This document shows positions 42,901 to 56,714 of a stretch of DNA of 64,000 nt, one piece after another (within the stretch, counting starts at the first letter, position 1; the number at the start of each line of letters is the position of its first letter). Location of the stretch: assembly GCA_000002435.2 (NCBI GenBank), contig CM018789.1. The stretch is one strand, 5' to 3'. The stretch comes from Giardia intestinalis (Eukaryota). A model generated the notes under the pieces. It had not been told where the DNA came from, did no database searches, and worked only from the letters and a program-made list of their open reading frames with translations. Both the position numbers and the translations under genes were made by a program.

Positions 42901-44880
42901 CGACCACTTCCTTCTGCTACCCTGGAGCTCAGAAGCAAAAACGCACTTGTGATACCGACCAAGATGGCCTTCATAAGCGGTAGCATTCTTCTTTGTGGGA
43001 TCCCAATTATTATGCCGTCTGACACACGAACTATCTCAAAAATGGAGATCCGTGGTCTTCGAATTTCTTTTCTCCCCATAGATGTGCGTTCAACAGGGTC
43101 TCTTTCAAAGTCGTCTTCCTTTTCCAAGTCAAAATCCTCGCTACCCCCACTTACAACATCAACCGTTCCAAATGATGGGGCCACCACCCAGCAGACAGAG
43201 ATTATTTTGGAAACTCCTGTCTCATTCCCCGTTCTTTCGCATGCTGCTGACATTGTGATATCCGTTGTATTTCCAAACTCACCAGTGCTTCCGGGGCAGA
43301 TTGTCCAGGGGCAATTGGTAGTGAAGAACACTGGCCAGCGCGATGTTTCCAATCTGCTTATCTCCTCAAGCCATCAAGCATATTGTGTCTATGATCATGA
43401 GGCGTGTGTTTATCTGGATGAAGTAACACTAGAGTCGGACCAACATGAGGGTACGCTGTCTTCAAAACTAACAGATATCTCTCTTGAGGTGGCCCTCGAT
43501 TTTATCTTCCCAAGCCCTCTAGCTGTATTATCAGAACTAGAGCAGATTGCAGCCACTCCTCACGAACAATCCGTACTGAAGCTGGATCTTGCAAGGCCTT
43601 ACATTAAGAGGGTCTTGCAGAATTGTATGAAAGAGCTTATGATGCCTCCCATGCTCCAGGATAGATTGATCGTTTGCAGAAGGAGCCTAAGATCACGCGA
43701 GTCTATTGCGATTCCAATACTTCTTCTTATTCCACCTGGAGCGCAACCAGGAAAGCTCATTGTTGAATACTATCTAGGATACTCTATTACTGTTTGGCCT
43801 GTCGTGTCAGAAACTACTGCAGAGCTTCATATCCTCTCCGCAGCTAAGCCCAGTCTCCAAGGCCAGCCAAGTCTATCGTTACCTAGGGATGCGATTGCAA
43901 AGTCAGTTGCAGAAAAACAGCATAGCGTTAGAGCAATTCTTCCATCCGGTCAGGATGAGCTAGTTGCAGTAATACTCTCAAAGCGGTGCACTCCACCATC
44001 TCTGTGTAGACTCACTCTGGAGAAGAGTGGATTCACCTACACTGGAACGTTCCTCTGTGACCAGTACAAAGACTCATTGAGATTACTTCGGCAGCGCAGC
44101 CAGTCATTCACACCAACCCAACAAAATAAGGTGGGCATTCCACCGGACGCACTGGCCAATGAGGCCTTGATTAAGCAGACTAAGGATCTTGCAGGAATAT
44201 CTCGATCGTCGCTATTAAAGCTACATGAGAACATTACATTGTTGCTTAAGCGGGCAGAACTACACAAATACGGCCCCAGCCTTTTACCCCTGGCATACAA
44301 CTACCTAAAAAAGCAAAGTAACTTTTCATTTCAAGACCGAAACGATACTGCTTATAACCTAAATGAATTTCATAGCACAATCCTAAAGGACTTGCAGACA
44401 GTTCAAAGCGCCGTGCTCGATATGTACGTTAAAGAATTTTGTCAAGTAACGACAAGAGACTTTAGTCTGGTTTATTCTTCTGGGGACAAGGTGTTCTTAA
44501 ATCGTGAATTCACCCCCACTGCTTCTCGTGACCCGCCTGGGCTGGGCCCTCTATCTGCAATGGTCCGATGCAATGCTGCAGCCGATGGTAAGGTAAGCTT
44601 TGACCTTGTTATGGTTAACCGGTCTCTTACCGTGATTAATACACACGTGTCTGCCAATATTAGTGGTCCTACCGGCCTGTTTTCCATGATAGGCCTCCAG
44701 ACAATCATTGGGGAAATAGATTCATTTGAAGTAGCCATAGTGCCTTTTATGGCGTGTGCCTCTTCGATTGGAGAGTGCACAATCTCCGTCTCTGTCGACG
44801 CGACCGTCTCCGTGGGTTCTCTACAGAGAAGGGTCCCAGTAGTTGATTGTGGGCTCCGGCTTTCTCTCATCGTTGCATAG
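39958..44880 (+). CDS. large hypothetical protein (1640 aa)
   Basis: Uninterrupted 4.9-kb ORF from an ATG. No motif recognised by eye. Confidence 0.55.
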   Translation: MTFFEPNYLAEALSFRSRLTIGLHINKTSAELCARNGIDLLHFLRNMPPYRVQAPLTADYINYQGRRTSAVLNNLQFKLYLVDELASIPLRVSQIVTPAPDQAIASANDTLIKNALGQLVQHFQGSSRNSTSSLSTSLHSSTIESISSDILRDIVSAYANAGFAQFRCFEHDFLDNPVGYLAVCAMTDSREEKIAAIKKITTGLPAVLQGAVSGMSDNDVCLTLLIIDLYPTDRSSQYIDPGLHNELTRYRVKPLYLNLQLFQQYIMEPSTDVNITEYLQSTHTKRYFEYLFSCEGFAADMYSDIVWSPMAMDPSSEDKKGLYARPTVSDLIVKQSNVLFSFFNTVFSYYLKTILIPFLASKLFNISESCEETVSVGKKMANILAGHHTSAKQATRTVPAHAHLSQGKAFYTKFPIEYRIRRLADLLLQCNLIDDACAYYETLLPRQKHKATSPFVAEAYEGAAFASLRKYFANYSFDNAHVHISADDTSKLLKYYGEALRIINDCLSDPTLGHVSLCNASLHSPFRLSGQVFNSPLQNAENGLSPFTPTPAFQTRISVYRLFDYKRYLEIMAALVYTVSGQSFHLVEKTFSYAIPHTINSLTAALSYLVSSFLLCEARYVRLGTESAFRAGALFFNDRLFNLAFLCFTYAFMNLDRPHLLPALKTGWWFATVYESELLYCRTRALRSERLDLQTAATKEPTLIDALSNKILQLLKNTTSKQMQTELFYPKDISSIVKHTPSTFSDPSSPIGSCFASLQRLLITNQVALPQLMSLFCLPFSTAKEIEERSLRFCIKNVTPPVRNIGETPLRYTVRLFSDLIQSTNGDADSSINTFLKKAFTPARKFIVRDYLVDFLTHIAPRLTNFDYKVLLKADAEKLKIIHKEIRIPSVSVSGLYHPNINLSSIILLDSKSLPCPFETLQGLVYHKLAKTQLLDQLNNIKAIRAGETAMAIFCLSNEYPLLDYDIKKVELSLCFYDESNRPLPSATLELRSKNALVIPTKMAFISGSILLCGIPIIMPSDTRTISKMEIRGLRISFLPIDVRSTGSLSKSSSFSKSKSSLPPLTTSTVPNDGATTQQTEIILETPVSFPVLSHAADIVISVVFPNSPVLPGQIVQGQLVVKNTGQRDVSNLLISSSHQAYCVYDHEACVYLDEVTLESDQHEGTLSSKLTDISLEVALDFIFPSPLAVLSELEQIAATPHEQSVLKLDLARPYIKRVLQNCMKELMMPPMLQDRLIVCRRSLRSRESIAIPILLLIPPGAQPGKLIVEYYLGYSITVWPVVSETTAELHILSAAKPSLQGQPSLSLPRDAIAKSVAEKQHSVRAILPSGQDELVAVILSKRCTPPSLCRLTLEKSGFTYTGTFLCDQYKDSLRLLRQRSQSFTPTQQNKVGIPPDALANEALIKQTKDLAGISRSSLLKLHENITLLLKRAELHKYGPSLLPLAYNYLKKQSNFSFQDRNDTAYNLNEFHSTILKDLQTVQSAVLDMYVKEFCQVTTRDFSLVYSSGDKVFLNREFTPTASRDPPGLGPLSAMVRCNAAADGKVSFDLVMVNRSLTVINTHVSANISGPTGLFSMIGLQTIIGEIDSFEVAIVPFMACASSIGECTISVSVDATVSVGSLQRRVPVVDCGLRLSLIVA

Positions 44881-44975
44881 CTGGAGTAAATGTTCACCAC
44901 TTGCTAACAGATCAAGCCATTACAAATTGTAAAACTACATAGCTGATATTTTTGTTGATACCTTGCCCGCGAGCG

Positions 44976-46565
44976 ATGAGTTCGTTCTTATCTGCAGATA
45001 CTCATAGCACTTTGGCGCCATATCTGTCAGCAGAGGTAACTCATAAGGATTTTCGTTCTGGGATCTACGGCGATAGCGCCTCAACCCAGAAAGGACAGCA
45101 TCTGTTGAAGCACCAGAACCAATACATTGATGGCCTCTTAATAGATAAAGAGGCAGATCTTGCAAGTCATGTGCAGCGGATCTTCGATCTTAACGACCCA
45201 ATAAGGCGCTTGTATCTGCTCTACCTTTCGCAACAAGCCGACATTACAGAGGTGGAGGTCTGCCTTTTAAAGGAGATCATGTGCCTGCGGGCCATTGTTG
45301 TGGGCTATCTAGAATACACCGATACATGGCATGAGCATCTCCAGGTACTACCGCTGAGCGCGTCATTTCGTACTCTAAGTGCAAGCCTAGCTTCTCGTCT
45401 GAGTGAAGAGTTGACAGAGAGGCTAGACAGGCTCACAAATACATGTGCAGTTCAGACAGTGGCACAAAGCATGACCAGTGTTCACACTCAAACCTTGAAT
45501 CAAGGTTTGTCTAGAGCACTTGCTGCTAGTGGGTTAGCAGATGAAAGCGATGCACTCATCACAAGTGCTGTTTCTTCTAGCGGGGTCAGACTCCCAACAC
45601 AGACACATAATCCGCTTGTTAGCAAAGTGAAGCAGTTACATGACCTTCTTGCAGAAAAAGAGGCCCGCATTGCAGAGCTTTCTACAGATCTCGCTGAGGC
45701 ACGCCAACAAATAGCTAATCATCGCGATTCGTTACATATTACAGATTTGTATACGGAGAAGCAATCTGGCTTCTCTGGGCCATTTCCAGCCAGCCAAGAT
45801 TCTAAGTTGGTTGTTAAACAGAGATCTACAAGCGCAGGGGTGTATACGGCAAAATCTGCATGTGAGCCGCTAGTAGCTCCATCTCAGAGAGCCTCTTCCA
45901 TACCAGATCATCAAAATGCCCACAGTAATACCCAGACAATCGTCTCGGCTGAACTAGTGCCAAAGACAGTGCTAGTGAATCTACACAAGTCTATCTCGGA
46001 ACGAGACACTCTTCTGGCAGAAAAATGTGAAATAATAACCACTCAACAGAAAGAGATTTCTTGGTTGAAGGAGATGTTGCGAATGCATGAAGCAGAAAAA
46101 GAAAGAGTTGCCCTACAGTCGACCACGTGCCACCAACCAGCTTCGCTCGTGCAATCTAATACTATAGAGTCTGATCACCCACTAGATAAGCGGAACAGTA
46201 GAGTGTCTTTTAGCATGGATGCTTCGACACCATCTAAGCGGGCTCGTTCTAAGAAGTCCCGAACAGTCGAGGCAATGATTGACGCCCTAGAGTTAGAGTC
46301 GCAGGTGATGTCCCTGAAAAACCAAATCTCTAAACTCCCCGCATCTGAAGATCTGGTTGAGGATGCGGTGACCCGCTTAGCATTCCTCGAGCAAGAACTT
46401 ACTCAGAAGTCCATCAGCTTGACAGACCTTAAGGCCTCTGCAGGCTCACCTCTCAGCCAAGCCGTCTCTCCACAGGTTTTTGACGACGATATCTCCAGAT
46501 TGATTGCTGATCACCAAGCGGTCTTTGCAACGGTTGAACGGTCCCTCTCACAAGCAACCAAATGA
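44976..46565 (+). CDS. hypothetical protein with coiled-coil segments (529 aa)
   Basis: The track start at 44952 is TTG; first ATG is 44976. Coiled-coil-like C-terminal half. Confidence 0.45.
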   Translation: MSSFLSADTHSTLAPYLSAEVTHKDFRSGIYGDSASTQKGQHLLKHQNQYIDGLLIDKEADLASHVQRIFDLNDPIRRLYLLYLSQQADITEVEVCLLKEIMCLRAIVVGYLEYTDTWHEHLQVLPLSASFRTLSASLASRLSEELTERLDRLTNTCAVQTVAQSMTSVHTQTLNQGLSRALAASGLADESDALITSAVSSSGVRLPTQTHNPLVSKVKQLHDLLAEKEARIAELSTDLAEARQQIANHRDSLHITDLYTEKQSGFSGPFPASQDSKLVVKQRSTSAGVYTAKSACEPLVAPSQRASSIPDHQNAHSNTQTIVSAELVPKTVLVNLHKSISERDTLLAEKCEIITTQQKEISWLKEMLRMHEAEKERVALQSTTCHQPASLVQSNTIESDHPLDKRNSRVSFSMDASTPSKRARSKKSRTVEAMIDALELESQVMSLKNQISKLPASEDLVEDAVTRLAFLEQELTQKSISLTDLKASAGSPLSQAVSPQVFDDDISRLIADHQAVFATVERSLSQATK

Positions 46566-46664
46566 TACGATTCACTCGACTCATTGACTACATCGAGTGC
46601 TGCGCCACTACCCTACGGGGGCGGGTACGCCCATCCACTGCCGCTCCAGAGGCAAGGTAGATTT

Positions 46665-48339
46665 CGTGGAGCCAGGGCGGCTCTCGCGGGGCCTGGCACC
46701 TGGCGTCCTGGGCGGTGCCGGGTCTGAGTGGGTGTGCGCCTTCAGCACTGTGGGCGTCCCCCGTCCCTCTTCTGGTACAAGGGATCGGTGATGCGTACCC
46801 CCTCGGTCTGCGTGCGATTGTCAGTGCCCGTGCCTCGTGGTGTCCCGGCTCTTTCAGCCCCAGCTGTCGCGGCGCCCTGCTCCGGCCATATCCCCACGAG
46901 GCCGCGTATTCTTCCATGGGACGGTCCTGGTTCCGTAGAGGCACGCCTGGGCCCACGATTCTCCCTGCGGAGGCCCCGTTGTCTGTGCTACTGGGGTCTG
47001 GGCCATCCGTCTGTACCGCTGCTTCAGGAGTCACATGAGTAAACTGCCTTTCACGTGGCTTTTTATAGAAGTAGACACTGATTGTAATCAACAGGGTCTA
47101 AAGATCTCTCGCCAATTGTACATGTCAGATCCTGTGGATTTTGGAATCCTTGGGTAGCATCCGTGCCCGGCTGATACGCGCGCCTCGGGCTCAGCAAGCC
47201 TGCCACCCTCCTCCTCTTGCCCCCTGCGAGGACGCCGCCACTGGCTAGACGCGTGCACAGCTTGTCCATCCGGCCCTTGAGAAGAGCCACATCACACGAG
47301 GAAGGGCGCCGTTTACTCGAGGAGAGAGGCGATTGCGTCGTGGCCATGCCTCCTTGCGATGTCGAGGGCGGTGGTGCCGGGCGGGAAGCCGAACCACTCG
47401 CGGGTGGTCTGCATGCCTTTCTCCTTGTCCATCAGGAGCCTCGCACACTCCAGGTGACCACTCTGCGCTGCATGCATGAGCGCTGTCCATCCATTGTTAG
47501 TCTTCATGCCGTCTTCTTTGTCTACTAGAAGCCTCACGCAGTCCGAGCAACCGTTGTCGGCTGCGTGCATGAGGGCAGTCCACCCACTGTTGGCCCTCAT
47601 CCCGCCTTCCTTGTCCAGTAGAGCCTCCGCACACTCGCGGCGCCCATACTGTGCTGCATACATTAGGGCGGTCTTCCCATCATCCGTTTTCATGCCACCC
47701 TCCCTCTTCAGCAGAACCTTCACGGCTCTCAGGTTTCCATACTCTGCTGCTGACATGATGTCGGTCTCGACGAAGCCGTATTTCAGCAACAAAAAAGACG
47801 AGAGACTCAGCCCGCTCCCCCCTGTTGGCGGCAAAACTCTGCGGCGTCATCGAGGCTCCCATCGGAAGCAGACCCCTCGGTGTCCTGAGGGCGACGACTC
47901 ATTTCCGAAGCCCCAAGCACGTCGCTCGGCATTTTTAACTTCGTCTGCTTGCAGGAAGACACTGCCACGGAAACACACACTTTGCTCTCTGCTTCACTGA
48001 GAACGGTTTGTCAACTGCTGTCCGAGCATCTCCGTGAGAGCCGCCGCGCTGGGTGGGCCGCCCGCTCACCGTCCGGGGTCCAAGGTTCAGATCTTGAAGT
48101 TCGAACTCGTGCCCTCATACAAGGCCTCCTCCCCTGTGGGTAGGCGGGTCTCACGCTCGTTCACTTCTCCAATCCAGGACTCAGAACTCGAAGCTTGAGC
48201 GTCGCATGTCATGATGATTTACTCCACCCACCGGTTGCTTCCAGTGGTGTGCTGCTGGGGCCTGCCTGCAGGTATGGTCCAGAGATCTCACGGGTAAGCT
48301 CTTGCTCAGTCCCTGACTAGTCCGGAGACGAGGGTTGGC
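46665..48339. repeat. left arm of a ~1.67-kb near-perfect inverted repeat (partner 51150..52824)
   Basis: ORF pairs are protein-identical in reverse orientation, with coordinates summing to 99489 (47834/51655, 47091/52398, 48143/51346). Direct reverse-complement comparison matches at 46665-46700 vs 52789-52824 and 48181-48320 vs 51169-51308 (2 mismatches). Similarity decays to degenerate by ~48440/51050. GC-rich. Confidence 0.85.
47313..47756 (-). CDS. small ankyrin-repeat protein (Giardia protein 21.1-type repeats), copy A inside the IR arm
   Basis: 147 aa from the first ATG (the track start is TTG). Four repeats with the TALMYAAQYG / TALMHAADNG / TALMHAAQSGH pattern. Identical to 51733..52176(+). 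Confidence 0.5.
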   Translation of the reverse strand: MSAAEYGNLRAVKVLLKREGGMKTDDGKTALMYAAQYGRRECAEALLDKEGGMRANSGWTALMHAADNGCSDCVRLLVDKEDGMKTNNGWTALMHAAQSGHLECARLLMDKEKGMQTTREWFGFPPGTTALDIARRHGHDAIASLLE

Positions 48340-51150
48340 CGCGGGTTGCAACGATAACCACAGCGGGGGCAAAGAGGGGTTCCCTCCACGTGTGGATCTG
48401 GGGTCTGTGCGTTCCGCGGCTGTTCCGCGGGCGTGCACAGCTGGACCTGAGGCGACGGAGAGCCCGTGAGGACCCGATCCACATTATGAACGCAAGATCG
48501 TACCTTCGGGCCCCAGAGAGCAAGCTGTGAGTCTCTACTCGGGGTGACACTCCGAAGACGTTTGCCCTCTCGGCAGGACACACACGCTGGCTCTGTGGCC
48601 TACCGTGTGAGAGCGCCAAGCAACTGACCGAGCACCTGAGAGAAGCAAATGATGACAGACACAGAGTGCTGGGCGACGACAAACTGATCCTTCCGTCCCA
48701 CATACCGAACCAGACAGCTGCCATGCTCATCCACCAAGGTGCACGCATGATCGCGAGCATCGAGCAGGCAGGGACTGGAGTCGCGCTCCCTGCTATCAGG
48801 GGCCTGAACGCCCTGGTGGGAAGCCCCAGAGGACTCAAGCAACACAGTAGAGCAGGCCCAGAGTAAGGCAGACCCAGACCCCGAGAAGGCGAGACGCCGG
48901 ATAGCAAACAGGGTGAACAACGCGCTGAGCTTCGGAGCAGTTGCTAAGGCTCTCCGCGCCCTTGATGAGACACCCGTGCGTCCCCCCGAAGGCTACGTTG
49001 GCCTTGACTACCCTCCATCGATGAGCTCGACGGGCTGGAGCGGCAACCGAGGAGGAAATGAGGAAGGCCCTGTTGGGACTCTCAACAAGAAGGCCTCAGG
49101 CGTGTCTGGCCTCGGGCCGGTCCAGCTCAGGTGACGAAGCAGAGCGACAGCTTCGTGAAATACCTCACGCAGGCGTACAACGAGCTGACCACCCACCCCG
49201 AAGGAGTCCGACGTGATGGCCATGTTCGAGTTCCGGGCGATCCTCATCCCGAAAGAGTCCGACGGATACCCCGATCGCGATAGGCGGATGGTCACGAACA
49301 TCTTCCACCGCGTCCTGCTGAAGGGCTGATCAGGCATGCCAACTACCTCTCATGCGAACAGATCGCCTTCAAGCAGAACGCATACGCGGTAGGCGTGAGG
49401 AGGGCCCACGAGCTCATCAGCAGGCCGGGGATGCACGCCGTCTCCCTCGACATAAAGAACGCCCTCAACTCGCTCCCGAGGGCGGAGGTCGTCAGAGCCC
49501 TGAACGAGGCGGAGGTCCCGAAGGTCCTAGTCGACTACATCGGGGACTTCCTCGACCTGAGGCACAGCCGGGACGTGAAGTGCGAGGTCTGCGGCGTCCC
49601 CCAGGGCGACCCGCTCAGCACGCTCCTCTTCTGCATGGCCATCGAGCGCCTCCTGAGACGCCTCAGGGAGAGGGGCATCACCTTCCTTGCCTAGCGGACG
49701 ACATCGTGGCGTTCCACGACGAAGGGTACCCAGCAGGTGTGATAACACAGCTGGCCACAGCAGAGGCTGCCGCCATGGGCCTGACGATCAGGAGCGACAA
49801 TGCAAGTCCACCATGGCGGGCGAGGAGGTGACCTTCCCCAACCACCCGGTGTCCCCCACCCCTGCCAGTCTCGCGCCGAAGGCCATCGCAGGTGCCGAGA
49901 CTGCCCCCATAACCACCCACCAGAAGCTCATCCTGCTGTCACTCTGCGTGGTCCCGATGGTGAGCTACGCCCCCCTGGTCGAGATAACATCGGACAAGGC
50001 GGACTACGAGGAGCTCGACAGACGTCGCACAAAGCTTCAGCAAGCTAACCAGCAGAAGCTGCGATCGCCTGGTCGACTTCCTGGCGTACCAAAGGAGAAG
50101 GGCGGCCTGGGCCTGCTCATGCCGGGGCTCTACCACGACGAGCTGCGGAGGGTGTGGGCCTCCCTGGACGTCAACAAGGGGACCAGAGACCCGGTGGAGC
50201 TGCCGGTGGAAGGCCAGGCACTGCAAGGGAAGGGGCCTACTCCAACCGCCTCCTCAGCCACACACCAGCTTCCAGACAGAGCGGCGGCGTGCTGACCGAG
50301 GAGGAAAGGGCCCTGAAGGAGAAGGGCGGCTCGATCATGGCGCAGAAAGAGGCACCTGCCCGGGCTGCCACACGGCGAGGACCCTCGACCACGAGGCACG
50401 ACATGATCGTCGCGTGCCTGTGCCTCCGCGTCTCGGGGAAGCTCAACCGGAGCTGGAAATCAAGACCCACAGCCACCTCAGCGACCAGAACCAGAAGCCC
50501 GACATCTGGCTCGTCGACAAGTGCAAAGCGATAGATGTGGGTGTCATCCAGCTCCGCCAGATGGATGCCTACTACAACGAGAAGGTCAAGAAGTACAGGG
50601 ACGGGACGCTCCCGATCATCTACGGGACAGACGGATCCCTCCACCCCAGTCCAAGGGGCACCTCGAGGAGCTCCACGTGGACCTCTGTCCGGGCCGCCTT
50701 CGCCATCGCCCACATGGCTGCAGAGGAGAACGAGCATCCGACGAAGCTGATCAGACGCGACCGGGCCGAAAGCCTGGTCACCCAGAGCGACCGTCTCCTG
50801 TCATCCTACTTCTGACAGCTGAATGAATCCACCCCTGGGACCTGTCGACAACGACCGAGAAGGGGCAAAGACTGGACACACAACCGAGTTGAATCCCAAC
50901 CAGAAGAGAAAGCCCCGCTAGCTGCTGCTGATATACATGGACAGCATTGAGAATGACAACAAAGACCAGAGCTTCACTCACCGTGAAGGGAGAACAAGGA
51001 GAGGCGCCCTAGTAGACCAGCGAGCCTGCAGGACGGCCTGATCTCCAAAAGGACCTATGTGCACTCTTAAACCGAGCACACGCCCGTAGAACAGCTGAGG
51101 AACGCAATAGCTCCTCCTACTACCACTGTGGTCCTTATATTGATACACGA
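48339..51150 (+). mobile_element. degenerate non-LTR retrotransposon (R2/Genie/GilD-like: RT plus C-terminal restriction-like endonuclease), frameshifted
   Basis: RT motif 1/2 region ~49230-49400 (AILIPKESDG...IFHRVLLKG). Motifs A and B are in ORF 49395..49694 (VSLDIKNALNSL; GVPQGDPLSTLLF). Motif C, LADDIVAF, is in a different frame at ~49690-49715. Zinc-finger-like CPGCHTARTLDH plus RLE domain KPDIWLVDKCKAIDVGV...NEKVKKYRDGTLPIIYGTDGSL at ~50360-50640. Multiple frameshifts. Confidence 0.7.
49230..50815 (+). pseudogene. frameshifted RT-RLE coding remnant of the retrotransposon
   Basis: RT motifs 1, 2, A, B, C and the PD-(D/E)xK endonuclease are spread over at least 3 reading frames (ORFs 49352..49831, 49395..49694, 50414..50815). 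Confidence 0.65.
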
Positions 51151-52824
51151 CCAACCCTCGTCTCCGGACTAGTCAGGGACTGAGCAAGAGCTTGCCCGTG
51201 GGATCTCTGGACCATACCTGCAGGCAGGCCCCAGCAGCACACCACTGGAAGCAACCGGTGGGTGGAGTAAATCATCATGACATGCGACGCTCAAGCTTCG
51301 AGTTCTGAGTCCTGGATTGGAGAAGTGAACGAGCGTGAGACCCGCCTACCCACAGGGGAGGAGGCCTTGTATGAGGGCACGAGTTCGAGCTTCAAGATCT
51401 GAACCTTGGACCCCGGACGGTGAGCGGGCGGCCCACCCAGCGCGGCGGCTCTCACGGAGATGCTCGGACAGCAGTTGACAAACCGTTCTCAGTGAAGCAG
51501 AGAGCAAAGTGTGTGTTTCCGTGGCAGTGTCTTCCTGCAAGCAGACGAAGTTAAAAATGCCGAGCGACGTGCTTGGGGCTTCGGAAATGAGTCGTCGCCC
51601 TCAGGACACCGAGGGGTCTGCTTCCGATGGGAGCCTCGATGACGCCGCAGAGTTTTGCCGCCAACAGGGGGGAGCGGGCTGAGTCTCTCGTCTTTTTTGT
51701 TGCTGAAATACGGCTTCGTCGAGACCGACATCATGTCAGCAGCAGAGTATGGAAACCTGAGAGCCGTGAAGGTTCTGCTGAAGAGGGAGGGTGGCATGAA
51801 AACGGATGATGGGAAGACCGCCCTAATGTATGCAGCACAGTATGGGCGCCGCGAGTGTGCGGAGGCTCTACTGGACAAGGAAGGCGGGATGAGGGCCAAC
51901 AGTGGGTGGACTGCCCTCATGCACGCAGCCGACAACGGTTGCTCGGACTGCGTGAGGCTTCTAGTAGACAAAGAAGACGGCATGAAGACTAACAATGGAT
52001 GGACAGCGCTCATGCATGCAGCGCAGAGTGGTCACCTGGAGTGTGCGAGGCTCCTGATGGACAAGGAGAAAGGCATGCAGACCACCCGCGAGTGGTTCGG
52101 CTTCCCGCCCGGCACCACCGCCCTCGACATCGCAAGGAGGCATGGCCACGACGCAATCGCCTCTCTCCTCGAGTAAACGGCGCCCTTCCTCGTGTGATGT
52201 GGCTCTTCTCAAGGGCCGGATGGACAAGCTGTGCACGCGTCTAGCCAGTGGCGGCGTCCTCGCAGGGGGCAAGAGGAGGAGGGTGGCAGGCTTGCTGAGC
52301 CCGAGGCGCGCGTATCAGCCGGGCACGGATGCTACCCAAGGATTCCAAAATCCACAGGATCTGACATGTACAATTGGCGAGAGATCTTTAGACCCTGTTG
52401 ATTACAATCAGTGTCTACTTCTATAAAAAGCCACGTGAAAGGCAGTTTACTCATGTGACTCCTGAAGCAGCGGTACAGACGGATGGCCCAGACCCCAGTA
52501 GCACAGACAACGGGGCCTCCGCAGGGAGAATCGTGGGCCCAGGCGTGCCTCTACGGAACCAGGACCGTCCCATGGAAGAATACGCGGCCTCGTGGGGATA
52601 TGGCCGGAGCAGGGCGCCGCGACAGCTGGGGCTGAAAGAGCCGGGACACCACGAGGCACGGGCACTGACAATCGCACGCAGACCGAGGGGGTACGCATCA
52701 CCGATCCCTTGTACCAGAAGAGGGACGGGGGACGCCCACAGTGCTGAAGGCGCACACCCACTCAGACCCGGCACCGCCCAGGACGCCAGGTGCCAGGCCC
52801 CGCGAGAGCCGCCCTGTTCCCGGC
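51150..52824. repeat. right arm of the ~1.67-kb inverted repeat (partner 46665..48339)
   Basis: See left arm. The outer boundary is sharp: the reverse-complement match ends at 52824. Confidence 0.85.
51733..52176 (+). CDS. small ankyrin-repeat protein, copy B inside the IR arm
   Basis: Identical 147-aa product to 47313..47756(-). Confidence 0.5.
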   Translation: MSAAEYGNLRAVKVLLKREGGMKTDDGKTALMYAAQYGRRECAEALLDKEGGMRANSGWTALMHAADNGCSDCVRLLVDKEDGMKTNNGWTALMHAAQSGHLECARLLMDKEKGMQTTREWFGFPPGTTALDIARRHGHDAIASLLE

Positions 52825-52902
52825 GCAGTCGCAGATAGAGACAGAAGACGACGAACCCCTCAGAGACGGGGATTGAAAAGATCGGGCCAAACGGCTATTT
52901 AC

Positions 52903-54060
52903 TTAGTTCACATCCGACACCGTAGTGCGGAGCTCGGCCCCGTTAATCTCCATGTTACCGAAGGCATCCCTAAGGATCTTGCCATTCTCCACAGTGCAGT
53001 AGAACGACACTTCGGAAGGATTGGGCTGCTTGGGTCTCCTCAAGCGAGACTCTGCAAGAGCTTTTAGAATGTCTGCGTGCTCATCTTTATCGAGGTTTTC
53101 CTTGATATCGTCGAATGCTAGAGCCTCAGGAATCCCTGCGATCGTAAGGAGACATGGGAGCCTTTCCTTCTGAGATTGCACCTTCTTGCCCTGCTTCTTC
53201 TTAGGCTTGGCGGCCTTCTGGTCATCAGCAAGCTGTACTCTAATTCCGGTGGCCTTCTTGGCTCCAGGCTTCTTCACACCACCCTTCGCCTCTTGGTGTC
53301 TCCTCTGCTTATTTTTTGTGCCCAGGGTACCATCGCCTGCAGACCCAACCCTCTCGCGAAGCTCCTGGATATGCTTACGGCGCTTCTCCGGGTTAATGAA
53401 CCTTATGGCGGGAACGCGTTCAAAAAGATTATCGGCAGAGAGAGCAGCAAAAAGCTTCTCTATCTCAGAAGACTGAACAACAACGGCGACCTTCGTCCCC
53501 CTCTGCGGCGGACGACCTTCAACATATCTAATCCCCATTGTCGCGCACCTGCCTTGCACAGAAGAGCCGCTGGCATCCTTGAGAGCACCCGCATTGATCC
53601 TTCCACGGATAGCATCCAGCACTTGATACTTCGCGGTGATCTTGAACTTGTGATCCTGAGCTGGCGTGATCTTCGAGAGGGTCTTAGTCAAAAAGGCGAC
53701 GACCTTCTCCGGGTCCATGAACTCTCCTGGTGCGGAGGTAACCGTGATGATGACATTTTTGCTTGTCTTGAGGTAGTCTGCATTGTACTCCTTGAACTTA
53801 GTAAAAATGGAAACATTGCGGTCGATGCAGTTCTTGCGTGCTTCATCCTGGTCGAGGGGAAGCAGATCAGCTTCTGGGTACTTCTGCCTAACCGCGGCAA
53901 GCAGCTTCCCATAGCCACAAGGTATTTCGACGCCCTTGTCAGTTTCACGGGCCTTGTTGGCTAGGTACGGCGAGCGAAAGCCGTCGACACCTTTGATGAT
54001 CTCCTTCAGGGTCCTTGTGAACTCCTCTGTAAGCTTCACACCCTTAATAATGATCGGCAT
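52903..54060 (-). CDS. hypothetical K-rich protein (385 aa), possibly nucleic-acid binding
   Basis: ATG 54060. Lys-rich central region (KPKKKQGKK). No firm domain call. Confidence 0.45.
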   Translation of the reverse strand: MPIIIKGVKLTEEFTRTLKEIIKGVDGFRSPYLANKARETDKGVEIPCGYGKLLAAVRQKYPEADLLPLDQDEARKNCIDRNVSIFTKFKEYNADYLKTSKNVIITVTSAPGEFMDPEKVVAFLTKTLSKITPAQDHKFKITAKYQVLDAIRGRINAGALKDASGSSVQGRCATMGIRYVEGRPPQRGTKVAVVVQSSEIEKLFAALSADNLFERVPAIRFINPEKRRKHIQELRERVGSAGDGTLGTKNKQRRHQEAKGGVKKPGAKKATGIRVQLADDQKAAKPKKKQGKKVQSQKERLPCLLTIAGIPEALAFDDIKENLDKDEHADILKALAESRLRRPKQPNPSEVSFYCTVENGKILRDAFGNMEINGAELRTTVSDVN

Positions 54061-54159
54061 CCTGCCCGGTCTTTTAATTGCTACATCAAAGTGACTTTAA
54101 ATTTGTTTATTTAGAAAGGGATTGGCATTTTTGTATCCACAACCGAACCTCAGGTAGCG

Positions 54160-55620
54160 TCATTCATCAAACGGAATGACTGGTTCAATGCGCCGCCGTG
54201 GAGGAGAAATGCTCTTCTCTAGACCACATAGTCTCCGCGTGTCCAGCTCTGTGCATAACAGGGGCAGCCTCCGTGTTATCTTGGTGTCTCCAGCGGGCTC
54301 CTGGCCTTGGCCTCGAGGCGGGAGAATAGCTGCTTGAGCCAATCTGATCAACGCTAAAATTATTGGAGGGTTATTTGCCAGGCAGCCACAAAACCGCAGT
54401 CTTTCGGTCTCTGTTAACGTATAGGAATGATCAGAAAGGACATGGTGCAGTCCAGCCTCTCTCATAGACAGAAGAGTCGCCCCTATTATGCATTTCAACT
54501 CGTCCTTAAGGTCGTCTATTGAGCGCATAAGAATGGTGAGCCTTTGTTTGAGGGTGCGTATTTCTTGCTGCTGCCGTATGGCCTCGCCCCTTCCAACGGA
54601 GCGACAGAGAGTTGGGGAGTGGTTGGTAGGAGACTCGGCGTTAGCAATAGTAGCCAGGATATCGTTGTGGCCGTAGAGAGTTCCTGCCTGCTGCGCTTTC
54701 CTCCCAGGGCCAGACCCATTAGCAAGTGCACCCGCGATTACAGGAAGCGAGGTGTGTTGTGTGGACATGAATGCCGTTTGTCCTGATGCAGAAAACTCTG
54801 GCCTTTCAGAGCCAAGTTGGCCGATCTGCGTGGAGTTTCTTGACCTTTGTCTCTGAGACCCTACTACGCTTCTGTCCGCATCCTTGGAGTATGGATATTT
54901 GGAGTCATCATCGGGACGAGGTGGAGAGGCTTTGTGGGGGGAGATCCCTTCGAAGTTCTGTGCACGCTGTGTTATAACTTGCTCCTGAACAAGCTTTTTA
55001 AGGTCAGAGCGCAGGACAGCGATCATGTTGCGCAAGTCCCCTATCTCCTTGTTTAAGCTATTGTTCTTTTGTACCTCAGCCTCCAGGGAAGCACTAAGCT
55101 CTGCCTTCTCCTCATTTAGCCGCTTGATGAAATCATTCCGGAGTTCGTCGCGCGTCTTTCTTGCTGATTCATCCTTTTTCTCTGCAAGGGTCTTGAAAGA
55201 TGGCTTTGCATGGAGGCGTGACTCAATAACGGCGATCCTGACCCGCTCTGACGCCACTTCCTCTAGGCTCTTTAGCTTTTCCTGAAGCGTGCTCCTTAAG
55301 TGCTGGATGTTTTCAGTTAGTGCAGTGTCTGCAGGTTCTCCGTCGGGCTCGTAAATTGATAGCCGTTCTCGTAGCCTCTCTACCTCCTTGTTATGAAGAA
55401 TCTCCCGACGAGCCAATGAAAGCTCTGCTGTTGTGAGTTCCGATTCCAGGTCCTTGATGCGTGCCTCAAGCGCCTGGATAGTGCTTTCCTGCTTGACGAT
55501 CAGGGCACGTGCCTTACCTGGCTCTATTCTAGTTTGAGTTACTAACCTGTTCTTTACTTCGCCATCTAACCCATCTATCAGGCCAGTATTAGCTGTTGAG
55601 TATGCTTTAGCGGTGTCCAT
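54160..55620 (-). CDS. coiled-coil protein (486 aa from first ATG)
   Basis: The track start at 55716 is TTG; first ATG is 55620, preceded on the minus strand by AT-rich sequence. Heptad-like sequence. Confidence 0.5.
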   Translation of the reverse strand: MDTAKAYSTANTGLIDGLDGEVKNRLVTQTRIEPGKARALIVKQESTIQALEARIKDLESELTTAELSLARREILHNKEVERLRERLSIYEPDGEPADTALTENIQHLRSTLQEKLKSLEEVASERVRIAVIESRLHAKPSFKTLAEKKDESARKTRDELRNDFIKRLNEEKAELSASLEAEVQKNNSLNKEIGDLRNMIAVLRSDLKKLVQEQVITQRAQNFEGISPHKASPPRPDDDSKYPYSKDADRSVVGSQRQRSRNSTQIGQLGSERPEFSASGQTAFMSTQHTSLPVIAGALANGSGPGRKAQQAGTLYGHNDILATIANAESPTNHSPTLCRSVGRGEAIRQQQEIRTLKQRLTILMRSIDDLKDELKCIIGATLLSMREAGLHHVLSDHSYTLTETERLRFCGCLANNPPIILALIRLAQAAILPPRGQGQEPAGDTKITRRLPLLCTELDTRRLCGLEKSISPPRRRIEPVIPFDE

Positions 55621-55664
55621 ACAGTGATAAAGTTTACTTACCTTTAAATTCCAGTTTTTATGGG
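55621..55664. promoter_or_regulatory. 44-bp AT-rich divergent promoter between 54160..55620(-) and 55665..56714(+)
   Basis: A/T-rich (aaagtttacttacctttaaattccagtttttatggg) between two divergent ATGs. Confidence 0.4.
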
Positions 55665-56714
55665 ATGGAGGGTCTGTCTCTCCTGCAGACGAGCTTTCGA
55701 ATTGTTGGTAGCGCAAGGGCTGCGGCTGCCTTCAATTCCACGGTGCAGTCGGGCGCAATTAAAGTGTTACGTTTAGAGGAATTCATCAAGCCGCTTCGCA
55801 TCATTGACCCTAACCTTCATTCTAAGGGTATGATCTCAACTCCATCAACTGTTGTAGTTGTGCTCATGCTGGAGCAAATCAAACAGGCTGCCAAAGAGTA
55901 CGTCTGTATGCAAATCACGGACTTGTGCGGGTCAGATGCCATCCTCGTCTATGAAAAAGATCCATCTGCAGCTACATCGATGAATATGGAAGTGTACAGT
56001 GTTATCTGTCTCCTCAGAACAAGTGTTGTGCACCTTAAGAATGCCTTATATCTTGAAAGTCCAGAGAGTCAAATCTTGCTGCTAGGACGTGCCATCAATG
56101 TTAGCACGTGCAGACATTTGAGCTTCACAGAGGGTCCGTGCTCTAATGCTATCGATGTGCGCGTATCTGTCTATTGCCCAGCGCACGCAGCGGGGGCCAT
56201 GTCAGCGCCCAATGCGGCCGGTTTGCGATTATATGAAGAGCTGCCTCTTATGGGTTCAGCTGCAGCACGTGCACACCATGCGTCGAAGCAGATGCATTTT
56301 TCCCCCAATCTTACCTTCAATGAGGTAGTAGATCATGTAGTCGAACGCCGAGCACAAGCTGAGCTTCTTAAAACTGGTGAACTAAAAGGTAAGAGACGCA
56401 CCTCAGGACTTGCAAAAGAGAAGCATCTCGGGCTTTCTGCAGTTAAGCCGTATGCTACATTGAAAATGAGTTTGCAGGAAGAAAGAAAGAGCGAAAGTGA
56501 AGCAACAAAGGCCACGCTCTGCAAAACATGCCAAATAGTTGCGGTAGTAGCTCCAGAGAGCTGCACTAAAAGCGGCCATAATTTGGAAACAATCTATGTT
56601 AAGGTACACCGATACAAGTGCAAGACCTGTTCCAGAGCCTATAAAACGATACGAAAATCCGGTCCTAGCTTTTCGTGTAGCACCTGTTTTACCAGCGCGT
56701 GGGCTACTTACTAG
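55665..56714 (+). CDS. hypothetical protein with C-terminal Cys cluster (possible zinc ribbon)
   Basis: ATG 55665. C-terminal CKTCQ...CTKSGH...CKTCSRAY...CSTC. Confidence 0.45.
   Translation: MEGLSLLQTSFRIVGSARAAAAFNSTVQSGAIKVLRLEEFIKPLRIIDPNLHSKGMISTPSTVVVVLMLEQIKQAAKEYVCMQITDLCGSDAILVYEKDPSAATSMNMEVYSVICLLRTSVVHLKNALYLESPESQILLLGRAINVSTCRHLSFTEGPCSNAIDVRVSVYCPAHAAGAMSAPNAAGLRLYEELPLMGSAAARAHHASKQMHFSPNLTFNEVVDHVVERRAQAELLKTGELKGKRRTSGLAKEKHLGLSAVKPYATLKMSLQEERKSESEATKATLCKTCQIVAVVAPESCTKSGHNLETIYVKVHRYKCKTCSRAYKTIRKSGPSFSCSTCFTSAWATY

What the first reader, a model, noticed from the sequence alone, without database searches (positions are those of the whole stretch)
48339..51150. Dead R2/Genie-type non-LTR retrotransposon (RT plus restriction-like endonuclease) as the core of a palindromic structure
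The sequence encodes RT motifs A, B and C (SLDIKNALNSL; GVPQGDPLSTLLF; LADDIVAF) and upstream motifs 1/2. A C-terminal zinc-finger-like CxxC...H segment follows. Then comes a PD-(D/E)xK restriction-like endonuclease (KPDIWLVD...IDVGV...KVKKYRDGTLPIIYGTDGSL) of the R2/NeSL/CRE/Genie lineage. These are split over at least 3 frames, so the copy is inactive. It lies between two convergent host gene 3' ends and is GC-rich relative to its surroundings. Giardia is known to carry only a few non-LTR families (GilM/GilT, GilD, Genie 1/2), of which GilD and Genie 2 are described as degenerate. From memory only, Genie 2 copies are reported to be flanked by short inverted repeats; here the IR is about 1.7 kb, which would be an atypical arrangement.
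Basis: partly seen in the sequence, partly recalled or inferred. Interest (0 to 1): 0.75.

Follow-up and report, generated by a model that had tools for sequence, protein, structure and literature searches.

The report
Dead Giardia retrotransposon centring a palindrome
A long-dead R2-like (GilD/Genie 2-type) retrotransposon of Giardia intestinalis WB sits in the middle of a real 6.1-kb palindrome whose near-identical arms each carry an ankyrin-repeat gene; it is a further example of a pattern already tabulated for surface-antigen (VSP) gene pairs in this genome.

Summary
The window is Giardia intestinalis WB (chromosome-scale assembly). Window 48213-51276 (+) is a 3,064-bp dead non-LTR retrotransposon with an N-terminal zinc-finger-like motif, an RT (Pfam RVT_1), a CCHC motif and a PD-(D/E)xK-like endonuclease. 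It carries 18 frameshifts, one stop and several deletions. The best solved-structure match is the R2 protein.

All copies of this family have about 215-bp terminal inverted repeats, which fits what I recall of GilD/Genie 2. Here the outer 129 bp of those repeats run without a break into 1,540 bp of host DNA that is duplicated in inverted orientation. The result is arms of 1,669 bp (4 mismatches) at 46673-48341 and 51148-52816, each with an ankyrin ORF pointing outward.

The palindrome is not an assembly artefact. Short-read contigs from other samples stop 30-37 nt inside both outer boundaries. Isolate DH has both arms at the same boundaries, and its arms share 21 of 25 differences from WB, which shows arm-to-arm gene conversion.

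Xu et al. 2020 already list reverse-transcriptase remnants between 4 outward-facing identical VSP pairs. This locus is therefore a new member of a known kind, with a different cargo gene.

One point is unexplained: the DH contig has a different, older dead element between the same arms.

The parts
46673..48341 (.). Left arm of the palindrome (1,669 nt). The outer 1,540 nt are host DNA. The inner 129 nt (48213-48341) are the element's 5' terminal repeat.
   Evidence: the repeat finder; the 4 mismatches all lie in the inner 242 nt; P15 and DH are collinear with WB across the outer boundary.
51148..52816 (.). Right arm of the palindrome, the reverse complement of the left arm.
   Evidence: DH contig L014 enters it by 631 nt from the right flank. 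Logan contigs L001 and L016 stop 30 and 37 nt inside it.
48213..51276 (+). Dead GilD/Genie 2-type non-LTR retrotransposon, 3,064 bp.
   Evidence: blastn to three DH copies at 84-86% identity spans exactly this interval; the junction alignment agrees.
48213..48430 (+). 5' terminal inverted repeat of the element family, starting (GATGA)TTTACTCCACCCACCGG. The inner limit is approximate.
   Evidence: Alignment of both ends of four copies.
51060..51276 (-). 3' terminal inverted repeat of the element family. The inner limit is approximate.
48486..50815 (+). Degenerate single ORF (about 775 aa when repaired) with 18 frameshifts, 1 in-frame stop (48545) and several deletions.
   Evidence: Frameshift-aware alignment to a composite of family proteins, 89.5% aa identity; the ORF start was taken from the L004 copy.
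48588..48662 (+). N-terminal zinc-finger-like motif, C-x2-C-x12-H-x8-H (WLCGLPCESAKQLTEHLREANDDRH).
   Evidence: It has no Pfam hit.
49225..49800 (+). Reverse transcriptase domain: motifs 1/2 at 49225-49323, A at 49443-49475, B at 49593-49631, C at 49691-49714.
   Evidence: Pfam RVT_1 E=5e-15; R2 protein 9nl2_A E=3.7e-12 for the family composite; coordinates.
50357..50420 (+). CCHC motif region. The family consensus is C-x2-C-x7-H-x3-C. This copy has a roughly 13-aa deletion that removes the last Cys. The RHD motif follows.
50495..50641 (+). PD-(D/E)xK restriction-like endonuclease core (KPDIWLVD, IDVGV, KVKKY).
   Evidence: Collinear with the R2 RLE motifs KPDL / VDVTV / EKVxxY in 9nl2_A. That stretch is not significant on its own.
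47316..47756 (-). Ankyrin-repeat ORF in the left arm (147 aa from the ATG; 173 aa from the TTG at 47834), pointing away from the element.
   Evidence: Pfam Ank_2 E=1.7e-34; the two copies are 100% identical.
51733..52176 (+). Ankyrin-repeat ORF in the right arm, identical to the left copy.
   Evidence: Relative to DH it has a 198-bp in-frame deletion and a 1-bp G-run deletion upstream.
44952..46565 (+). Left host gene (537/529 aa). Its 3' end lies 107 bp from the left arm.
52903..54060 (-). Right host gene (385 aa). Its 3' end lies 86 bp from the right arm.

Best explanation
A single, long-inactive copy of the Giardia GilD/Genie 2-type retrotransposon forms the asymmetric centre of a 6,144-bp palindrome. 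The element belongs to the R2 group, with a zinc finger, RT, CCHC motif and restriction-like endonuclease.

Shown:
- The family carries its own terminal inverted repeats of about 215 bp.
- In this copy the repeats continue seamlessly into 1.54 kb of inverted-duplicated host DNA that holds an ankyrin-repeat gene.
- The two arms are kept almost identical within a genome by arm-to-arm gene conversion, while they diverge between isolates.

Inferred: the element first lay next to the ankyrin gene, and the left arm is contiguous with the left host gene in assemblage E. Its terminal repeats then served as the homology from which the inverted repeat grew outward. The mechanism would be template switching or extension of a conversion tract, copying the left flank to the right side. 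The 2.8-kb non-repeated core now acts as the spacer that keeps the palindrome stable.

The element no longer does anything as a transposon. What remains active is DNA-level recombination between the arms.
For: Identity of the element:
- RVT_1 E=5e-15 for the window and 1.8e-29 for the family composite.
- Best PDB match is the R2 protein at 3.7e-12, with collinear thumb and CCHC/RLE stretches.
- 18 Giardia homologues were found and none is intact.
- 18 frameshifts and 1 stop.
- No telomere repeats occur in the window.

Terminal repeats belong to the family:
- Both ends of the window, L003, L004 and L005 copies align.
- L005 has 170 nt at 98% with a 2,791-nt spacer. L003 has a 2,797-nt spacer. 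The window has 2,806 nt.
- Flanks beyond the repeats are unrelated between copies.

Continuity:
- The arms abut the element's termini on both sides with no intervening unique DNA.
- All 4 mismatches lie in the inner 242 nt.
- Identity stops where the family repeat itself becomes imperfect.

The palindrome is real:
- Logan contigs from unique flanks end 30 nt (WB-like) or 37 nt (DH-like) inside the arms. The DH arms differ at offsets 3 and 6, which accounts for the extra 7 nt.
- DH 454 contigs contain both arms with the same outer boundaries.

Concerted evolution:
- WB left versus right is 100% over 631 nt and DH left versus right is 99.4%.
- WB versus DH is 96.0%, and 21 of 25 differences are shared by both DH arms.
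- Both WB arms share the ankyrin deletions.

Left arm ancestral in place: P15 is collinear through the boundary up to window 47338.

Recurrence:
- RT remnants lie between 4 of 7 outward-facing VSP pairs in WB (PMC7000408).
- L003 is a decayed palindrome of VSP flanks around a copy.
Against: The direction and mechanism of arm growth are inferred, not shown. I could not obtain the right side of the locus in P15 or any lineage lacking one arm.

Two of the four copies examined (L004, L005) have no extended palindrome, so the terminal repeats do not always seed one. Twelve tail-to-tail identical VSP pairs in WB have no RT between them, so Giardia makes such pairs without this element.

The DH contig has a different dead element between the same arms. 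The simple history does not predict this.

Assignment to GilD/Genie 2 by name relies on my memory of Arkhipova & Morrison 2001 and Burke et al. 2002. Neither paper could be read here.
Confidence: 0.6

Rival explanations
1. The palindrome came first. An inverted pair of ankyrin genes already existed, like the many inverted identical VSP pairs, and the retrotransposon later inserted at or near its centre. Its endonuclease may have been drawn to a hairpin or cruciform-prone site.
For: Giardia has 19 duplicated inverted VSP pairs, most without any RT remnant (PMC7000408; PMC2996952). In DH the same arms enclose a different dead element whose right end meets the arm at the same position. That would fit a preferred insertion point at the arm's inner edge.
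Against: No unique spacer remnant lies between the arms and the element ends on either side. Insertion would therefore have had to hit the exact symmetry centre of a spacer-less palindrome, which would be unstable. The arm identity runs 129 nt into the element's own terminal repeat. Flanks of other copies show no shared target sequence.
Confidence: 0.22
2. The central element is exchangeable. The arms (ankyrin gene plus upstream DNA) belong to a dispersed gene family. Ectopic recombination or conversion between paralogous arm copies swaps whatever lies between them. On this view the WB GilD copy and the DH 'X' element are alternative cassettes, and neither founded the palindrome.
For: WB and DH flanks are 99.1-99.2% identical, yet the centres are unrelated at the DNA level. 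Both occupants are long dead, so neither can be a recent retrotransposition. The arms differ 4-5.5% between isolates, about five times more than the flanks, as expected if paralogues contribute sequence. The DH left arm lacks its inner ~270 nt.
Against: It rests on a single 454 contig end (AHGT01000013.1). The X ORF DHA2_150825 is on record from one contig only, so a chimeric join through ankyrin repeats is not excluded. No third copy of the arm is present in the window, and none could be searched for genome-wide.
Confidence: 0.13
3. The 1.67-kb inverted repeat is an artefact of the long-read assembly.
For: Near-perfect palindromes can be produced by chimeric long reads. The ankyrin ORF is not on record as an exact protein.
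Against: The centre is asymmetric and 2.8 kb long. Independent short-read assemblies break k-1 nt inside both outer boundaries. The independent DH assembly has both arms with lineage-specific shared substitutions. The DH assembly also breaks between the left and right host genes.
Confidence: 0.02

Closest known systems
GilD (Arkhipova & Morrison 2001), equated from memory with Genie 2 (Burke, Malik, Rich & Eickbush 2002): the 'dead' non-LTR family of Giardia lamblia
   Same: Same host. All copies are degenerate. Length is about 3 kb. The location is chromosome-internal rather than telomeric. There is a single ORF with RT followed by CCHC and a restriction-like endonuclease. Inverted repeats of the reported size class lie at both ends (170 nt at 98% in L005).
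   Different: In this copy the inverted repeat is ten times longer, because 1.54 kb of host DNA with an ankyrin gene is duplicated in inverted orientation outside the element. No alignment to the published reference sequences was possible.
Duplicated outward-facing ('<- ->') VSP gene pairs with a reverse-transcriptase remnant between them, G. intestinalis WB (Xu et al. 2020, PMC7000408, Table 2). Also the identical inverted vsp pairs of Adam et al. 2010 (PMC2996952).
   Same: Same genome. Two identical genes point away from a central RT pseudogene. The spacing is in the same range: 3,976 bp between the two ATGs here, against 3,242-6,264 bp there. Identity ends abruptly outside the genes.
   Different: The cargo is an ankyrin-repeat (ARP-1/protein 21.1-type) gene, not a VSP. 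Those papers do not connect the pairs to the element's own terminal repeats, and they do not show concerted evolution across isolates.
R2 and the other RLE-bearing non-LTR retrotransposons (R2, R4, NeSL, CRE, HERO, GENIE clades)
   Same: The domain order is N-terminal zinc finger, RT, CCHC, then PD-(D/E)xK. The R2 protein is the best solved-structure match. There are no LTRs and no poly(A) tail.
   Different: No site-specific target is evident from four copies and no target-site duplication was seen. Long terminal inverted repeats are not a feature of R2-group elements. Identity to the nearest intact relatives (Giardia GS, Hexamita, Spironucleus, unnamed Logan proteins) is only 25-33%.
Gene-conversion-maintained palindromes (human Y ampliconic palindromes, chloroplast inverted repeats)
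   Same: Long, nearly identical arms surround a unique spacer. Arm identity is maintained while the orthologous arms diverge between lineages. Genes are carried in pairs.
   Different: The scale is kilobases, not tens to hundreds of kilobases. The spacer is a dead retrotransposon whose own inverted termini are part of the arms.

Membership tests
RLE-type non-LTR retrotransposon (R2 group / GENIE clade) | Reverse transcriptase domain with the conserved motifs | tested here: met
   Pfam RVT_1 E=5e-15 for the window and 1.8e-29 for the composite. R2 protein 9nl2_A E=3.7e-12.
RLE-type non-LTR retrotransposon (R2 group / GENIE clade) | CCHC motif followed by a PD-(D/E)xK endonuclease, C-terminal to the RT | tested here: met
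   The family consensus has C-x2-C-x7-H-x3-C, RHD, KPD...D-V...K-x-Y, collinear with the R2 motifs (that stretch is not significant alone). The window copy keeps the RLE motifs but has lost the last Cys of CCHC to a deletion.
RLE-type non-LTR retrotransposon (R2 group / GENIE clade) | N-terminal zinc-finger DNA-binding region | tested here: inconclusive
   C-x2-C-x12-H-x8-H at 48588-48662, conserved in L004. The spacing is atypical and there is no Pfam hit.
RLE-type non-LTR retrotransposon (R2 group / GENIE clade) | Closest relatives are other RLE elements | tested here: met
   A profile search of 1.84 billion proteins was run. The full-length hits that carry names are RT or RT/endonuclease proteins of Giardia, Hexamita inflata and Spironucleus salmonicida, at 25-33% identity over 545-720 aa.
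RLE-type non-LTR retrotransposon (R2 group / GENIE clade) | Insertion by target-primed reverse transcription, often site-specific | not testable with these tools
   No target-site duplication and no shared flank among four copies. The copy is dead.
GilD / Genie 2 | All copies degenerate (frameshifts, deletions) | tested here: met
   18 frameshifts and 1 stop here. None of the 18 database homologues is intact; the longest, at 595 aa, is frameshifted.
GilD / Genie 2 | Inverted repeats at the two ends (up to 172 bp; this feature is recalled from Burke et al. 2002) | tested here: met
   L005 170 nt at 98%, L003 125-144 nt at 90%, window 129 nt at 97.7%. About 215 nt are alignable in all.
GilD / Genie 2 | Not telomeric and not in head-to-tail arrays (unlike GilM/GilT) | tested here: met
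   It is a single copy between housekeeping-type genes. There are no TAGGG repeats and no second copy in the 64-kb window. GilM is 5,474 bp and subtelomeric (PMC7000408).
GilD / Genie 2 | Sequence identity to the deposited GilD/Genie 2 reference sequences | not testable with these tools
   Neither the papers nor the reference sequences are held. NCBI names of the homologues say only 'Reverse transcriptase/endonuclease, putative'.
Inverted identical gene pair with RT remnant (Xu et al. 2020, Table 2) | Two identical genes pointing away from each other with an RT pseudogene between them, 3-6 kb apart | tested here: met
   The ankyrin ORFs at 47316-47756 (-) and 51733-52176 (+) are 100% identical and 3,976 bp apart, with the dead RT between them.
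Inverted identical gene pair with RT remnant (Xu et al. 2020, Table 2) | The paired genes are VSPs | tested here: not met
   The paired ORFs are ankyrin-repeat proteins (Pfam Ank_2 E=1.7e-34).
Gene-conversion-maintained palindrome | Arms more alike within a genome than orthologous arms are between genomes | tested here: met
   WB 100%, DH 99.4%, WB versus DH 96.0%, with 21 of 25 differences shared by both DH arms.
DNA transposon with terminal inverted repeats | Transposase gene and target-site duplication | tested here: not met
   The only coding capacity between the repeats is RT/RLE. No duplication was found at the junctions.

The most novel reading that the evidence does not exclude
The terminal inverted repeats of dead GilD/Genie 2 elements may be a general seed and spacer for the gene-conversion-maintained palindromes that keep Giardia gene pairs (VSP, ankyrin) identical. 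The central retroelement may also be swapped by recombination between closely related isolates (GilD in A1/WB, the older 'X' element in A2/DH at the same junction). That would make dead retrotransposons structural parts of a recombination system in a parasite with no demonstrated sexual cycle.
Probability: 0.25. Interest if true: 0.55.

Novelty: new member of a known kind. Interest (0 to 1): 0.33.

Why it matters
The element family and the general pattern (an RT remnant between identical inverted genes) are already published for this genome. The locus does not change what is known about Giardia transposons.

It adds three things:
- A base-level link between the element's own inverted termini and the arms of a host-gene palindrome.
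- Direct evidence, from the WB/DH comparison, that the arms evolve in concert while diverging about five times faster than the neighbouring unique DNA.
- An ankyrin-gene example alongside the VSP ones.

If the pattern is general, it offers a mechanism for the 'interesting but cryptic' identical inverted gene pairs noted by Adam et al. 2010. It would also be a tractable locus for measuring mitotic gene conversion in Giardia.

Tried and rejected
- **Primary papers.** The papers on GilD (DOI and PMC64710) and Genie 2 are not held. Full-text searches found only secondary mentions.
- **Organism identity.** I first suspected a divergent Giardia species. The right host protein (385 aa) matched named proteins at only 51%, and its P15 and Logan homologues lie in a different gene neighbourhood. 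I rejected this after exact look-ups placed seven window proteins in WB. The 51% hits are paralogues.
- **Ankyrin ORF.** Exact look-ups, from the TTG or from the ATG, found nothing.
- **RNA genes and tandem repeats.** An Rfam scan of 44000-56000 found nothing at E<=0.1. The only tandem repeats are the ankyrin units.
- **RNA structure.** The terminal repeat folded alone as RNA is not unusually stable (z=+1.57).
- **More copies in metagenomes.** A protein-pattern scan and a terminal-repeat DNA pattern both returned nothing.
- **Verifying the DH centre.** A homologue search showed DHA2_150825 on one contig only. The look-up of the WB X-family protein P0119 found nothing on record.
- **Terminal repeats in X.** None were detected.
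- **Target-site duplications and shared target sequence.** None were seen among four copies.

Full report
**Source and observation.** Exact protein look-ups place the window in Giardia intestinalis WB (ATCC 50803), on a 1,485,438-bp contig of the chromosome-scale assembly. GL50803_0023447 lies on the left and GL50803_009859 on the right. The inverted repeat is confirmed: arms at 46673-48341 and 51148-52816, 1,669 nt each, 4 mismatches, 2,806 nt between them. The structure lies between the 3' ends of two convergent host genes. It is 60.8% G+C, against 46.9% and 50.4% in the flanks.

**What the centre is.** The conceptual translation hits Pfam RVT_1 (E=5e-15). It also hits 18 Giardia proteins, several named 'reverse transcriptase/endonuclease', at E down to 6.5e-127. 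All of these are fragments or frameshifted.

I built a composite of the best-preserved relatives and added the N-terminal part from the L004 copy. A frameshift-aware alignment then shows one ORF from 48486 to 50815. It has 18 frameshifts, one in-frame stop and several deletions, and is 89.5% identical where aligned.

The repaired protein has these parts:
- a zinc-finger-like C-x2-C-x12-H-x8-H motif;
- the RT;
- a C-x2-C-x7-H-x3-C motif, whose last Cys is deleted in this copy;
- an RHD / KPD / D-V / K-x-Y endonuclease core.

The best solved-structure match is an R2 retrotransposon protein (9nl2_A, E=3.7e-12). Collinear weaker stretches cover the thumb and the CCHC/RLE region.

A profile search of 1.84 billion representative proteins finds full-length relatives at 25-33% identity. 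Those that carry names are RT or RT/endonuclease proteins of Giardia (GS), Hexamita inflata and Spironucleus salmonicida. The element is therefore a dead member of the diplomonad branch of the RLE-type (R2 group, 'GENIE') non-LTR retrotransposons.

By its features it matches what I recall of GilD/Genie 2. It is dead, about 3 kb long, chromosome-internal, single-copy in the window and free of telomere repeats, and it has terminal inverted repeats. The primary papers and reference sequences could not be consulted.

**Boundaries and terminal repeats.** Three copies from isolate DH (loci L003, L004, L005) match window 48213-51276 at 84-86% identity, and their flanks are unrelated. Both ends of all four copies align as inverted repeats of about 215 nt, starting (GATGA)TTTACTCCACCCACCGG. 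The repeats are 170 nt at 98% with a 2,791-nt spacer in L005, and 125-144 nt at 90% with a 2,797-nt spacer in L003. No target-site duplication or common target is visible.

The element itself contributes the inner 129 nt of each arm.

**The arms.** The remaining 1,540 nt of each arm is not element sequence. It contains a G+C-rich non-coding stretch and an ankyrin-repeat ORF (Pfam Ank_2 E=1.7e-34), which points away from the centre. The two ORF copies are identical. All four arm mismatches lie in the inner 242 nt. Identity ends where the family's own repeat becomes imperfect.

**The palindrome is real and old.**
- Short-read (Logan) contigs carrying the flanking host genes end 30 nt inside the arm in a WB-like sample and 37 nt inside in DH-like samples. 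The DH arms differ at offsets 3 and 6, so these are breaks k-1 nt after the start of arm identity (k=31 is from my own knowledge of Logan).
- The independent DH assembly has both arms with the same outer boundaries.
- Over the outer 631 nt, the WB arms are 100% identical to each other and the DH arms are 99.4% identical to each other. WB versus DH is 96.0%, and 21 of the 25 differences are shared by both DH arms. This is concerted evolution by arm-to-arm gene conversion since before the A1/A2 split.
- Unique flanks are 99.1-99.2% identical between WB and DH, so the arms diverge about five times faster.
- Both WB arms share a 198-bp in-frame deletion of two ankyrin repeats and a 1-bp G-run deletion relative to DH.
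- In assemblage E (P15) the left host gene runs collinearly into the left arm for at least 665 nt before the contig ends. The left arm is therefore in its ancestral place.

**Comparison with the literature.** Adam et al. 2010 described 14 identical inverted vsp pairs, separated by 2.2-3.8 kb, as 'interesting, but cryptic', without mentioning RT (PMC2996952). Xu et al. 2020 is the paper describing the assembly this window comes from. It reports that 4 of the 7 duplicated VSP pairs that point away from each other contain a reverse-transcriptase remnant (PMC7000408).

The window shows the same architecture with an ankyrin gene as cargo. In addition, the L003 copy in DH lies in a decayed palindrome of VSP flanks (76-78% identity). 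L004 and L005 have no extended palindrome.

**Most likely history.** The element lay next to the ankyrin gene. Its terminal repeats supplied the homology from which the inverted repeat expanded outward, copying the left flank to the right side. Gene conversion has since kept the arms alike, and the 2.8-kb core serves as the spacer. The seamless junctions on both sides and the recurrence of the pattern support this. The direction and mechanism are inferred.

The main rival is insertion into a pre-existing ankyrin palindrome. That requires a hit at the exact centre of a spacer-less palindrome. It is not excluded, because I could not obtain the right side of the locus in an outgroup.

**Unexplained.** The DH contig holds, between the same arms, a different 3.1-kb segment 'X' (L011 18193-21335). 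X has no DNA similarity to the WB centre. It carries remnants of an RT/RLE protein: ADGILVFH, GLGVHLPG and PDLFLPD...AVDIGVVQP...YYHSK, with 44% identity to the GilD endonuclease region at E about 1e-8.

X is a member of an older repeat family, 67-79% identical between copies. It is also present at L003 12939-14278, L004 2318-4212 and L005 7915-8541, where it abuts the GilD copy. Its right end meets the right arm within a few bases of where the GilD repeat ends in WB. On the left, DH lacks about 270 nt of the arm.

Both occupants are long dead and the flanks differ by less than 1%. This is therefore either a recombinational replacement or a chimeric 454 contig. The X ORF is on record from one contig only, and my look-ups were exhausted.

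**Verdict.** The locus is a new member of a known kind, of modest interest.

Noticed in passing
L011 18193-21335 (DH contig AHGT01000013.1); also L003 12939-14278, L004 2318-4212, L005 7915-8541: This is a second, much more degenerate dead RT/RLE retroelement family ('X'), 67-79% identical between copies. It has only about 44% aa identity to GilD in the endonuclease core. It may be a family beyond the three usually listed for Giardia. In L005 it directly abuts a GilD copy.
   Followed up: partly
window 46673-48212 and 51277-52816 versus L011/L014: The palindrome arms differ 4-5.5% between WB and DH, while the adjacent unique DNA differs 0.8-0.9%. The arms nevertheless stay 99.4-100% identical within each genome.
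   Followed up: partly
window 51480-52176 (and its mirror 47316-48012): Relative to DH (294 aa), the WB ankyrin gene lacks two repeats (198 bp). A 1-bp deletion in a G run also breaks the longer reading frame, which starts at an AT-rich initiator-like ATG (about 51555). The gene is either a pseudogene pair or carries a homopolymer sequencing error present in both arms.
   Followed up: partly
window 52903-54060 (-): The 385-aa host protein is known by exact sequence only from short-read (Logan) assemblies, not from NCBI. Its nearest named relative (GLP15_4520, 51% identity) lies in a different gene neighbourhood, so it has a diverged paralogue family in Giardia.
   Followed up: partly
P0130 (828 aa, Logan contigs of 4.6-5.0 kb) and P0127 (2,036 aa): These are apparently intact full-length relatives of the family (28-32% identity over about 700 aa) from unidentified samples. 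They have the ZF, RT, CCHC and RLE all in frame. The source organism is unknown.
   Followed up: no
window 54160-55716 (-) and 55665-56714 (+): Two divergent host ORFs overlap by about 50 bp at their 5' ends if the longest ORFs are taken. In other assemblies the left one is called as 486 aa, which removes the overlap.
   Followed up: no
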